64,000 bases of DNA, taken from the NCBI RefSeq assembly GCF_009914755.1, contig NC_060937.1. One strand, given 5' to 3'. The DNA is from the human T2T-CHM13v2.0 reference genome, Homo sapiens. This document shows, in pieces, positions 42,603-50,200 of this stretch. Numbering within the stretch: the stretch's first letter is position 1; every line of letters begins with the position of its first letter. The position numbers and the translations under genes are program-made. The notes beneath the pieces are model-generated. The model was not told where the DNA came from. It saw only the letters and a list, made by a program, of their open reading frames with translations, and ran no database searches.

Positions 42603-43372
42603 AACATAATAAGAGCTAATATATGAGCATTTATTATCCATCAGAAATCCTGACATGACATATAATGCATCCCTTACAATAAATATGGAAAATAGTATTA
42701 TTACTATAATTCCTATCTTACAGGTGAATAAAGTGATGTATTAGTATATTTATTGCCTAACATCACAAACATGATAGAGTAAGTTACAAATGCCTGTGAC
42801 TTTAATATTCACATCATTCAAATACCAAAATTTACACATACATCTGAGCTTATGCCAAAATCTAGCCGAGTACTTTTCTAACATAAAGCATGTCTAAAAT
42901 TCATATGTTTAAATCTAATATTAAATTTTATATTATTTAGGTTTAATTATTTGTAGTCACCCCCTTTAAATAACATTGCTTCTGACAATTCCTAATATAA
43001 AAAGCCTATTTTCTATATTGACTATATAGACTGCAGAGAAAGATGTTTTCTCTGGACAGGTAATTCAAAACTGTTAGGGACTGTAAGTAAAAATTTGTGA
43101 ATCTTGGAGCAAAGAAAATATATATAGTTATGTGTGCAATGTGTGCATGATATACAAAAGTGTAGAAAAAGATCTCAAATCCAATTAAGAAAACATACAA
43201 TGTAAAGCACAAAGTGAATACAAGGGTAACATATAGCAATTTATGTACAAGAATATAAATTGCCAGAAATTCAATCTATCACACGTATCAAAAATGAAGC
43301 TCCTTCCAGAATATGTAAAACATGTGAATGCATCTAATGCAAGAGGTTACTTTCTTAAAATCTACAGGCAAC

Positions 43373-43492
43373 GGGGTGTTAAAGTCTCCCATTATTATTG
43401 TGTGGGAGTCTAAGTCTCTTTATAGGTCTCTAAGGACTTGCTTTATGAATCTGGGTGCTCCTGTATTTGGTGCAGATATATTTAGGATAGTT
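43373..43492 (-). mobile_element. Inverted 5' segment of the L1 at 43669-47249 (endonuclease-coding region)
   Basis: Reverse complement aactatcctaaatat...cacccagattcataaagcaagtcc...ggagactttaacacccc; directly follows the 5' TSD. Confidence 0.92.
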
Positions 43493-43668
43493 CTTGCCTA
43501 TCTTACTCACTGCTGTATCCCTCAGTTCTTGGCATAGTGTCTGGACCAAGGGAGAACTTAAATTGTGTTTCTGAATGAACGATTGAAAGACAGGCACTGG
43601 CCATGCCCTTGCAGAGCTTACCGGCTAATGAGAGAGAAAGGTAGGGAACAATCATCACCTCACAGTAC

Positions 43669-46600: not shown

Positions 46601-47249
46601 TGCCGGAGAGAATATGGAGAGATAGGAACACTTTTACAGTGTTGGTAAGACTGTAAACTAGTTCAACCATTGTGGAAGACAGTGTGGCAATTCCTCAAGA
46701 ATCTAGAACTAGAAATACCAATTGACCCAGCGATCCCATTACTGGGTATATACTGAAAGGATTATAAATCATGTTGCTATAAAGACATGCATACATATGT
46801 TTATTGCAGCACTATTCACATTAGCAAAGACTTGGAACCAACATAAATGTCCATCAATGATAGACTAGATTAAGAAAATGTGGCACATATACACCATAGA
46901 ATAGTATTCAGCCATAAAAAATGATGAGTTCATGTCCTTTGTAGGGACATGGATGAGGCTGGAAACCATCATTCTAAGCAAAGTGTCACAAGGACAGAAA
47001 ACCAAACACCGCATGTTCTCACTCATAGGTGGGAATTGAACAATGAGAACACTTGGACACAGGGTGGGGAACATCACACACTGGGGCCTGTCTTGGGGTT
47101 GGAGGAAGGGGGAGGGATTAGGAGAAATATCTAATGTAAATGATGAGTTAATGGGTGCTGCAAACCACCATGGCTTATGTTATACATATGTAACAAACCT
47201 GAACTTTGTGCACATGTACCCTAGAACTTAAAGTATAATAATAATAAAA
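43669..47249 (+). mobile_element. 5'-truncated L1PA5/6-like element with disrupted ORF2 (EN, RT, C-terminal) and 3'UTR
   Basis: ORF fragments include [21 protein letters not shown] and FADDII (RT); multiple stops and frameshifts; TSD aaaatctacag(g/a)caac at 43357-43372 and 47250-47265. Confidence 0.97.
45052..46092 (+). pseudogene. L1 ORF2 reverse transcriptase fragment (346 aa, non-functional)
   Basis: RT motifs QG and FADD present; bounded by an upstream stop and a downstream frameshift. Confidence 0.9.
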
Positions 47250-50200
47250 AAAATCTACAGACAACACAGGAAATGCTTAAAATTCTGTGTTACATGGATT
47301 GAAAATGAAACTGAATTTGTTCAGGAATTAACCAAGGTACCATTAAATCCGAATCAGCAAAAAATACCTTATGCACTTCAAAAGAAGGGGCCTCTCAACT
47401 AATGAATAAAAATGTCACATTTTAGCCACAATACAAGAAGTTGACTTTTTCCTCCTTTCTGGTAAGCCTCATTTTTGGTGATGGCCAATTTATTTGCCAT
47501 CTTTTAAAGGACCAGAATGAGTAGAGACTACCAAGGATAATATTGTAGTGAAGTTACCCACACACAAATTAATTTTATTGTTTCTTCTCATATAACCAAT
47601 GCAAAATGCGAATATAGCTTTCTAATTCTTAGTGTAAAACTTTGAATTTATAATCTTTATCCATGTCTTAGGTTAGACTCCAAATTTTCTTATTTTCCCC
47701 CCAAAAATATTCAACTTATGAAACAAGATCATGAGGTGTCCTAATTTAGACTTTGAACTAAAGTCAACTAGGTAATGATTTTAGATTTTTTCTCCCTGGA
47801 AAAGGGGGAGTTGTTTTTGTTTATTCTTGCCATTATATGTAAAAGGTATTTGGTTTTAGAAACAAATATTTAAAAAACAGTAATAATTTGATATATTTTC
47901 TGCCACAACTAGTGTATTTTGTCCCTTTTTAAAACATTCTTAGCTTTTTTTCTTCTGCAACGCTTTCCTCAAGGTCCGTTTTGAAGTTATTTTTACATAG
48001 ACAAGCCAGTCAAGTATCCCAGAAAGCCATGGAGATGCCCATAGTTCTCAATCCCTGAATACATAAACTTTTTTAGTTTTGTGAAATTAACGATAGATAT
48101 ATCCTGAGTAATGAGGACAGAAGATAAAGCTGGGGGACAGTCTTGTGGCTGCACTGGGACCTATTTGTGTTTTTATCAAATAATTAGACACCTGGCATGT
48201 ATGAATGGTGGTTTTACAAATTAAATGCAACTTGAGGTCAAAGCAAGTGTATTGTGTATACATGATGATCATTTGTTAGAACAAGTAAAATTTGTTTTTA
48301 AAGCTGCCTAGCCTTGATGAGTCATAAACAAAATTATGTGGAATGTGAAAATAATTGAACTACTTAGAACTAACACCCACTCAGTGATAGGTGATTAATC
48401 CTGCTTTAAAAGAAAAAAAAAAAACAGTCTCAAAACCGAAGGTCACCTCCAGGCATAGCTATGCTTATCTACTTGGAGCAGATTTTTTAAAATCCTATAT
48501 TTAAAGATACCTGTGATTGATATCTCATACTATTCACTAGAAACATAACCCTCTCTTTAGTCAAGCGTCTAATCAATGGCATCTCTTTAGGTCTAAGGGT
48601 CTCCAAGTTTATTACACATAAGAGTTGCTTGAGAAGCTTGTTAGTGATGCAGATTGCCAAGACCCACTCCAAGAATTTTGCTTCATTTAATGGGTTTGGA
48701 GGGTGCAGTAAGAGATATTATAACAACTTCCAAAGTGACTTTTTTGTGGACTATGCTTGTGGAAACACTGTCATCAGGTTAACCCAAACCCCTTTAACAT
48801 CCTTTGCAATGACCTTTCAATTAAAATTATCTTGTCCATAACCATTTTGTAAATAGACAAATAGTGGAATAAAGAAGGAAATAAGAGGCAAATATCTGAC
48901 CTCTAGACTGAGTCTACAGATTCCTAGGTGGACTTCAGGTCATTTTACTTTTTAATATGATTTAATTTGTTTTATTAGATTTCATTTCTTTTTCAAATAA
49001 AGTAGAAAAATCGAATGTTATGCTCTCAAGATTATATAAAGAATTACAGCTTTATGCTTCTGTATTTATTTTTAAATATAACCCTTTTAAATTAGCTATA
49101 TACCAGTTACTAACTATACTTTTAACCATATATTTATTATTTATAATATTATGTTATTATTTATATTAAATATATTATATTTATTATTATTTATTATCTG
49201 TGTTATTTTTTTCTAAGACAGTTATCTCCAACTTCCTTAAGATGCAGCTCCTTCTGGTACCCTTGGGTATATTATATAATCACCCCATCTTATTGGGCAT
49301 TCTGGTTTTCAGTTACAATACCTTTTAAAATGGTTTATTTTGCTGGCAGCTGTTTACTCATTCTTAAACACTTTGAGGACTTCTCATTCATATTCTCTCT
49401 GTATACTGAGATTAATGCTAGCTGACTGTTGCCCTAATTATTAATAGTCACATGATTGTACTAGTTAATATCACACATTTGTCTATTGTTCTTAAGGCTA
49501 TGCAGTCTCATCCCATTGAGATATTCTGGGACATCTTATTTTACTAATTTATCTATTTAAACTTACCCATTTCCTTAGGAAAAAAAACTTGGAAAAGTAA
49601 TATTCTACTAACAATTCTTCAATAAATGGCTTTAGTGATAGTTCATTTAGGAGATAAAGAACTACTCTTAAGTTATTAAAACAGTGAGAATTTGACATAG
49701 ATAACTTGTTTCATAGATAATAAATAGCTGAGAAAAAGAAAGAGTATCACCAGAGCCCAGAAGACAGGACCAACATACAAAAGGTAGAATCACAGGGATC
49801 TGCTTGGGCATCTCTTAGGCACCCAGAAAAAAAGGCAGCAATGACAAGAAGAGGCTAAAAGCAAGGAAAGGAAGTACCAGCCTCTCTGACCCTCTCATTT
49901 TGTAATATCTTACCAGCACCCCTCATTGGAGAAAATCAGCCAGAAATGAGTTGGCATGAACTTTCACAGGACACAGCTCGTGAGGTTCACTCACCCTGTG
50001 ATGCTTAGCAGAAAAAGTAATAGAGCAGAGAAAGTGTATGAGGGCAAAATGTTCACACTTGGCACACAGAGTAAGTATACTGCCACACTACCATATGCAT
50101 TGTAAAATAATGTTAATGGCAATTATTATTAGATAAAAATTAATTGATATAATTAATTTTAGAATTTAAAAAGGTATATTTCTCTTATATTGATGATAAG

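What the first reader, a model, noticed from the sequence alone, without database searches (positions are those of the whole stretch)
43357..47265. Twin-primed L1 with about 176 bp of foreign, L2-derived DNA at the inversion junction
Seen: one 16-bp TSD (aaaatctacag[g/a]caac, at a TT/AAAA site) brackets three parts. These are an inverted L1 piece (43373-43492), a non-L1 block (43493-43668) and the sense L1 (43669-47249). In L1 coordinates the inverted piece ends only about 8 nt before the sense piece begins, which is classic twin-priming geometry. The middle block looks like old L2 3'-end pieces in both orientations (tcactgctgtatcc...ggcatagtgtctgg...tgaatgaa; aagacagg...tgcccttgcagagcttac). 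Established: L2 was extinct long before L1PA elements. Inference: the block was copied from another locus or transcript during integration, by RT template switch or templated repair. It has no TSD or poly-A of its own.
Basis: partly seen in the sequence, partly recalled or inferred. Interest (0 to 1): 0.8.

Follow-up and report, generated by a model that had tools for sequence, protein, structure and literature searches.

The report
Inverted L1 with captured chr19 filler
An old L1 retrotransposon on chromosome 13 inserted with its front end flipped and, in the same event, picked up a 177-base copy of a unique sequence from just upstream of the cyclin E1 gene on chromosome 19; it is a clean fixed example of a kind of L1 chimera already seen in cell-culture and tumour studies.

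Summary
One 16-bp TSD (15 of 16 identical) at a TT/AAAA site brackets three parts. These are an inverted L1 piece (43373-43492), a non-L1 block (43493-43668/9) and a sense L1 (43669-47249). In 11 of 11 uninterrupted L1 copies the two L1 pieces lie 8 nt apart, which is twin-priming geometry.

A whole-assembly search finds one other copy of the block, at C19:32336233-32336407 on the minus strand: 162 of 178 columns identical, with homology ending at both L1 junctions. The ages agree. The L1's own branch is 3.1%, which predicts 10.8 block-to-donor substitutions; 13 are seen.

The donor lies 344 bp outside the cyclin E1 promoter CpG island and 1.9 kb upstream of the start codon. The block reads in the direction of divergent transcription from that promoter.

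My best reading is a single twin-primed insertion that also copied a chr19 RNA, by RT template switch or capture of a cDNA. A DNA template is not excluded. Close precedents are in print (PMC11702581, 10.1101/2024.08.27.596794, PMC13174262), so this is a new member of a known kind. Primate orthologues could not be checked, and the L2 identity of the block was not tested.

The parts
43355..43356 (+). tt immediately 5' of the TSD; with the TSD's aaaa it forms the TT/AAAA L1 endonuclease target site
   Evidence: Read directly.
43357..43372 (+). 5' target-site duplication (aaaatctacaggcaac)
   Evidence: 15 of 16 identical to 47250-47265.
43373..43492 (-). Inverted L1 arm, 120 nt of the ORF2 endonuclease region; the product of the second (twin) priming
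   Evidence: 97-98% to L1 copies on the minus strand; equals positions 1501-1620 of 11 of 11 intact loci; mean 95.5% identity to 19 of 19 sibling copies.
43493..43668 (+). Captured non-L1 block, a copy of C19:32336233-32336407 (minus strand); base 43669 is shared with L1
   Evidence: the only other hit in the assembly, E 7.8e-62; 162 of 178 columns identical, homology ends at both L1 junctions; no copy elsewhere in the window; no Rfam family over the donor segment.
43669..47249 (+). Sense L1 arm, from ORF2p residue ~152 to the 3' end, with a short degenerate A-rich tail (47230-47249; only 4 pure A before the TSD)
   Evidence: starts at position 1629 of intact copies. RVT_1 at 44737-46089; solved LINE-1 ORF2p, E 2.7e-215 and 3.1e-45. 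Tail read.
47250..47265 (+). 3' target-site duplication (aaaatctacagacaac)

Best explanation
One L1 retrotransposition event, roughly 14-22 million years ago, produced the whole 43357-47265 structure. ORF2p nicked at TT/AAAA, and the bottom strand primed reverse transcription from the poly(A) end up to ORF2 codon ~152. The other target end primed a second cDNA 8 nt upstream on the same L1 RNA and copied 120 nt; this is twin priming. Before the two cDNA ends were joined, 176-177 nt of a second template from chromosome 19 were copied in. That template lies 1.9 kb upstream of the cyclin E1 start codon. I think the template was most likely an RNA. Either one of the two RT reactions jumped onto it, or a separate cDNA made from it was ligated between the two ends. 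If the primary cDNA made the jump, the RNA ran on the chr19 minus strand, which is the divergent (upstream-antisense) direction from the cyclin E1 CpG-island promoter. Shown here: the anatomy, the unique donor and the matching ages. Inferred: that the template was RNA, which RT jumped, and the identity of the transcript.
For: A single TSD pair and a TT/AAAA site enclose all three parts. The 8-nt gap between the arms was seen in 11 of 11 intact copies. It falls in the range reported for twin priming: 1-10 bp deletions in 22 of 32 events (PMC11702581, passages read). There is one donor in 3.1 Gb and it is still present, so this was a copy and not a cut. The donor's flanks are non-L1, and the nearest L1 fragments lie at least 6 kb away. 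All three parts have the same age. The L1 terminal branch is 3.1%, or 2.8% without CpG sites. The inverted arm differs from siblings by 4.5% and the sense arm by 4.4-7.4% per 250-nt bin. The block differs from its donor by 13 substitutions against 10.8 expected, and a block younger than 0.7 times the L1's age is rejected at P<0.05. Junction microhomology is 0 nt on the left and 1 nt on the right. That suits RT jumping or end-joining better than strand invasion. ORF2p makes template-jumping products in vitro (PMC10830420, passages read). Twin-primed insertions with extra RT sequences at the internal junction have been recovered experimentally (PMC11702581, section 7). The donor lies 344 bp from a 2-kb CpG island that holds the cyclin E1 start, and the block's strand equals the divergent direction.
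Against: Nothing in the sequence proves an RNA intermediate: there is no splice junction, no A-tail, no editing cluster and no known RNA gene at the donor. ORF2p also copies DNA templates efficiently, and open promoter-proximal chromatin could serve as a DNA donor just as well. No report of a cyclin E1 upstream-antisense transcript turned up: none of the 10 papers listed contains the term 'CCNE1 promoter'. The age test is coarse because it rests on 13 substitutions. Presence and absence in other primates was not tested.
Confidence: 0.6

Rival explanations
1. Same single insertion event, but the block was copied from chromosome 19 DNA. In this reading a free 3' cDNA or target end invaded the donor duplex, or ORF2p or a repair polymerase used single-stranded donor DNA. 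It synthesised about 176 nt, came off and was joined, as in SDSA- or MMBIR-like templated insertion.
For: Non-L1 genomic templates under 250 bp copied into L1 insertions are reported (22 instances) and attributed to an SDSA-like process (10.1101/2024.08.27.596794, passages read). ORF2p is an efficient DNA-dependent polymerase. The donor sits next to a CpG-island promoter, which is probably open chromatin.
Against: The reported templates lie next to the insertion site, whereas this donor is on another chromosome and the 64-kb window holds no copy. Microhomology of only 0 and 1 nt at the junctions is poor support for strand invasion.
Confidence: 0.27
2. Two events: an ordinary twin-primed L1 inserted first. 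Later a double-strand break at the inversion junction was patched with a templated sequence from chromosome 19, as in a class 2 templated sequence insertion.
For: The block has no TSD or A-tail of its own, and its junctions look like end-joining. Such patches are described (PMC5110952, passages read). The age test cannot exclude an insertion during the first ~30% of the L1's residence.
Against: The patch would have had to land on the single inversion junction of a 3.7-kb element. The two arms do not overlap in L1 coordinates, so no hairpin-prone palindrome exists there. A block younger than 0.7 times the L1's age is rejected at P<0.05, and one half its age at P=0.004.
Confidence: 0.04
3. The block is ancestral chromosome 13 DNA flanked by two unrelated L1 fragments, or the structure is an assembly artefact.
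For: None found.
Against: One TSD pair encloses all three parts. The two L1 pieces are 8 nt apart in L1 coordinates and of the same age. The block has a 91% identical copy of exactly the same extent on C19.
Confidence: 0.01

Closest known systems
Experimentally recovered twin-primed L1-mediated insertions with extra reverse-transcribed sequence at the internal junction (SEMA3C and GREM examples; Mendez-Dorantes et al., bioRxiv 2024, PMC11702581; section 7 read, its Fig. S7 not seen)
   Same: Two inverted arms copied from one RNA, discrete TSDs, and foreign RT-derived sequence sitting between the arms. The authors attribute this to template switching of the secondary RT or to incorporation of additional cDNA before ligation.
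   Different: Those are de novo events in cultured cells over-expressing L1, and the arms come from mRNAs (processed pseudogenes). This one is a fixed germline L1 about 14-22 My old, and its filler comes from a non-genic promoter-upstream sequence.
[quoted passage not shown]
   Same: Twin-primed L1s with an extra segment at the breakpoint, and 22 cases where non-L1 templates under 250 bp were copied into the L1 during integration.
   Different: The switching cases copy another part of the L1 RNA. The templated insertions use templates next to the insertion site and are explained by DNA pairing. Here the template is interchromosomal.
RNA/L1 chimeric insertions (U6, U3, 5S, tRNA, 28S, Alu, mRNA; Law and Burns 2026, PMC13174262; outline, sections 10 and 18, passages and supplements searched)
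   Same: A non-L1 sequence arrives together with a 5'-truncated L1 inside one TSD pair. The explanations offered are template switch, RNA ligation or twin priming.
   Different: In those, the partner lies at the 5' end of the insertion and is an abundant small RNA, an Alu or an mRNA. Here the partner lies between two L1 arms and matches no known RNA. Neither 'CCNE1' nor the TSD string occurs in the 6 supplementary files that could be read; one further file, mmc7.pdf, could not be read.
Templated sequence insertion polymorphisms (Onozawa and Aplan; PMC5110952, passages read)
   Same: Short patches templated from distant genomic regions, probably through reverse-transcribed RNA, with end-joining junctions.
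   Different: Class 1 events have their own TSD and poly(A), and class 2 events stand alone at a break. This block is embedded in an L1 insertion intermediate.

Membership tests
Twin-primed (5'-inverted) L1 insertion | One TSD pair of L1-typical length flanking both arms, at an ORF2p endonuclease site | tested here: met
   16-bp TSD, 15 of 16 identical, at TT/AAAA.
Twin-primed (5'-inverted) L1 insertion | 3' arm in sense orientation ending in a poly(A) tail next to the 3' TSD | tested here: met
   Sense arm runs to 47249. The tail is short and degenerate (taa repeats, then 4 A before the TSD's own aaaa). ORF2p and RVT_1 matches.
Twin-primed (5'-inverted) L1 insertion | Inverted 5' arm whose L1 coordinate next to the 5' TSD abuts the start of the sense arm, with a small deletion or duplication | tested here: met
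   8-nt deletion, seen against 11 of 11 intact copies.
Twin-primed (5'-inverted) L1 insertion | The two arms joined directly at the inversion junction, with 0 to a few nt of microhomology | tested here: not met
   176-177 bp of chr19-derived sequence lies between the arms. This makes it a variant of the canonical form.
L1 chimera formed by RT template switch or cDNA capture | Non-L1 sequence inside the same TSD pair as the L1, lacking its own TSD and poly(A) | tested here: met
L1 chimera formed by RT template switch or cDNA capture | Non-L1 part and L1 arrived at the same time | tested here: inconclusive
   Divergence agrees (13 observed against 10.8 expected; less than 0.7 times the L1 age rejected at P<0.05). 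The presence/absence test across species could not be run.
L1 chimera formed by RT template switch or cDNA capture | The partner is an RNA | not testable with these tools
   No Rfam family at the donor and no expression data to hand. Only position and strand relative to the cyclin E1 CpG island are known.
Local templated insertion at L1 integration sites (SDSA-like) | Template lies next to the insertion site | tested here: not met
   The donor is on C19, and no copy exists in the 64-kb window.
   No repeat library was available. The assembly search finds no further diverged copies (2 candidates, 2 scored). The resemblance is from recall only.

The most novel reading that the evidence does not exclude
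The block is a fossil cDNA of an unstable upstream-antisense (PROMPT-type) RNA from the cyclin E1 promoter. The L1 reverse transcriptase jumped templates in mid-integration and captured it, in the germline of an ape ancestor. If so, fillers at L1 inversion junctions would record short-lived nuclear RNAs that lay close to integrating L1s. A genome-wide census of them could show which RNAs ORF2p samples in vivo.
Probability: 0.3. Interest if true: 0.5.

Novelty: new member of a known kind. Interest (0 to 1): 0.35.

Why it matters
This is a well-resolved, fixed germline example of a three-part L1 insertion (inverted arm, foreign filler, sense arm) whose donor can be named to the base. It shows that the complex TPRT outcomes recently seen in engineered cells and tumours also entered the primate germline and became fixed. 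Standard repeat annotation would split it into unrelated L1 and old-repeat fragments, so events like it are probably under-counted. The donor's position beside a CpG-island promoter, in the divergent orientation, gives a testable lead on which templates ORF2p picks up. The locus is intergenic, and nothing suggests a function for the insertion itself.

Tried and rejected
- A local donor: blastn of the block against the 64-kb window, word size 7, gave only 11-19-nt chance matches.
- A known RNA gene at the donor: Rfam in E-value mode on L002 gave 9 matches, all Alu-type or weak hits in the flanks and none over positions 1500-1675.
- A special RNA structure in the block: MFE z-score -0.24, with 78 of 200 shuffles folding at least as well.
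- An L1 beside the donor that could suggest a chimeric source transcript: only two short old fragments in 40 kb, about 6 and 7 kb away.
- Protein families in ORFs that overlap the block: 0 families for both (proteins 1 and 9).
- Longer imperfect homology at the junctions: by eye there is only 0 and 1 nt of exact microhomology. A gapped 7-of-10 resemblance at the right junction was judged chance level and dropped.
- Print record of this locus: Law and Burns' supplements hold no 'CCNE1' and none of four TSD strings (mmc7.pdf unreadable).
- Print record of a cyclin E1 upstream-antisense RNA: none of the 10 papers listed contains the term 'CCNE1 promoter'.
- Ostertag and Kazazian 2001: not held, so its content is cited only through other papers.
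- L1 subfamily: not assigned, for lack of a library. The age estimate uses substitution rates recalled from memory (0.17-0.22% per My).
- Correction: an earlier count said 9 of 11 copies read actgtcaa; the correct count is 8 of 11.
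Full report
ANATOMY. The 5' TSD aaaatctacaggcaac (43357-43372) follows tt, giving a TT/AAAA endonuclease site. The 3' TSD aaaatctacagacaac (47250-47265) follows a short, degenerate A-rich tail. The two copies are 15 of 16 identical. Three parts lie between them.

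First part, 43373-43492. It matches genomic L1 copies on the minus strand at 97-98% (40 of 780 candidates scored, 11 non-self loci fetched).

Third part, 43669-47249. It is a sense L1. Two of its ORF fragments carry RVT_1 (E 1.2e-16 and 4e-23). Two fragments match solved LINE-1 ORF2p chains (E 2.7e-215; E 3.1e-45), and the sense arm begins at about ORF2p residue 152.

Spacing of the two L1 arms. In 11 of 11 uninterrupted L1 loci the inverted piece occupies locus positions 1501-1620 and the sense piece begins at 1629, or at 1630 in the 3 loci where the first base differs. The 8 missing bases read actgtcaa in 8 of 11 copies. The L1 end next to the 5' TSD is the one that nearly abuts the start of the sense arm, which is what twin priming predicts. 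Mendez-Dorantes et al. found 1-10 bp deletions in 22 of 32 and duplications in 10 of 32 such events (PMC11702581, passage read).

THE MIDDLE BLOCK AND ITS DONOR. Searching the window's own 3.1-Gb assembly with 43493-43668 returned two places: the block itself and C19:32336233-32336407 on the minus strand (91%, E 7.8e-62; 2 candidates, 2 scored). The search tool skips very common words and finds only fairly close copies, so older diverged relatives would be missed.

The pairwise alignment has 162 of 178 columns identical, with 13 substitutions and 2 indel events covering 3 columns. It runs from window 43493 to 43669 and stops at both L1 junctions. At the left junction neither the L1 continuation nor the donor's upstream base matches, so microhomology is 0 nt. 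At the right junction one c could come from either source.

The donor's flanks on C19 are an Alu-like piece and other non-L1 sequence. In 40 kb around it, only two short L1 fragments occur, 6-7 kb away. So C19 is the native context and the chr13 copy is the derived one. The window itself holds no other copy.

AGE. I aligned 2.5 kb of the sense arm with 12 sibling L1 copies. These were 12 of 19 fetched; six gave partial coverage and one gappy copy at 89.8% was dropped.

- Substitution distances from this copy to the others average 6.0% (range 5.4-6.6%). Distances among the others average 5.9%.
- A consensus-free star decomposition gives this copy a terminal branch of 3.1%, or 2.8% without CpG-like columns.
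- The inverted arm differs from 19 of 19 siblings by 4.5% on average. The sense arm differs by 4.4-7.4% per 250-nt bin.
- A block copied at the time of insertion should differ from its donor by about 2 x 3.1%, which is 10.8 substitutions in 175 sites. Thirteen are seen (P of 13 or more = 0.30).
- A block 0.7 times as old gives P = 0.046, and one half as old gives P = 0.004.

With recalled neutral rates of 0.17-0.22% per My, the event is about 14-22 My old. The subfamily was not assigned. The 3'-most 1 kb matches other copies at 89-93% (40 of 10,636 candidates scored).

WHERE THE DONOR SITS. Family searches of the assembly placed an RNase P p29 exon at C19:32139442, a Rieske exon at 31738707 and three Cyclin_N exons on the plus strand at 32343149, 32346423 and 32347442.

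The middle cyclin exon is 49 of 50 residues identical to solved cyclin E1. An upstream ORF covers cyclin E1 residues 5-38 (31 of 34 identical). An ORF ending in the first eight residues puts the start codon at about C19:32338286. That reading is by eye; it is consistent with chain residues 5-8.

A CpG island (GC above 0.55, observed/expected CpG above 0.6) spans about 32336751-32338750. The donor therefore lies 344 bp outside the island and 1.9 kb upstream of the start codon. The block's plus strand corresponds to the C19 minus strand, which points away from cyclin E1.

MECHANISM. Shown here: one TSD pair, twin-priming geometry, a unique retained donor, and the same age for all three parts. 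Inferred: how the donor sequence got in.

ORF2p makes template-jumping products in vitro and copies both RNA and DNA templates (PMC10830420, passages read). An RNA template is my preferred reading (about 0.6). An interchromosomal template is easier to supply as RNA. The junctions show only 0 and 1 nt of microhomology. Cells over-expressing L1 yield the same architecture with RT-derived fillers (PMC11702581, section 7).

If the primary cDNA jumped at ORF2 codon ~152, the acceptor RNA had the block's sense, so it was a minus-strand, promoter-divergent transcript. If the secondary cDNA jumped, it was a plus-strand transcript. A separately made cDNA ligated in could have either sense.

Evidence against the RNA reading: there is no splice junction, A-tail or known RNA gene at the donor, no special fold, and no published cyclin E1 upstream-antisense RNA in the one search made.

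A DNA template (about 0.27) remains possible. The tumour preprint explains its 22 templated insertions by SDSA-like pairing, but with templates next to the insertion site. A later, separate patch (about 0.04) is disfavoured by the age test and by the need to hit one junction in a 3.7-kb element.

COMPARISON AND NOVELTY. Each ingredient is in print:
- twin priming;
- RT template switching to other RNAs (U6/L1 and more than 700 catalogued chimeras, PMC13174262);
- twin-primed insertions with extra RT sequences at the internal junction.

This locus was not found in the catalogue's readable supplements (one file unreadable). It fails one defining feature of canonical twin priming, the direct join of the arms, and one feature of local templated insertions, a nearby template. 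It fits the experimentally described complex outcomes. I rate it a new member of a known kind. It is a tidy germline example with an exactly mapped donor and a testable lead about promoter-upstream RNA.

LIMITS. No primate genomes, repeat library or expression data were available. The supplementary figures of the two preprints were not seen. The L2 label and the substitution rates rest on recall.

Noticed in passing
window 43369-43372 and 43669; L1 bases just before the sense-arm start (loci L004-L014, positions 1625-1629): The 5' TSD ends in caac. In 8 of 11 intact L1 copies the four bases ending at the first base of the sense arm are also caac. A plain 5'-truncated insertion at this point would have had 4 nt of microhomology with the target end. 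This may be chance, or it may hint that the target end first paired with the primary cDNA there.
   Followed up: partly
window 43632-43946 (+): A 104-codon stop-free frame starts inside the captured block and reads straight into the L1 ORF2 endonuclease frame. There are only 12 codons of block sequence and no family match, so this is most likely chance.
   Followed up: partly
window 47230-47249: The L1's A-tail is very short and broken up: taa repeats, then four A before the TSD's own aaaa.
   Followed up: no
L002 29-470 and 1753-1813 (C19:32334761-32335202 and 32336485-32336545): The donor's flanks carry Alu-type sequence, seen as sub-threshold Rfam hits to SRP RNA, mir-1268, mir-3135 and mir-1285. 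The piece at 1753-1813 lies only about 80 bp from the block's 5' edge in donor orientation, yet was not copied.
   Followed up: no
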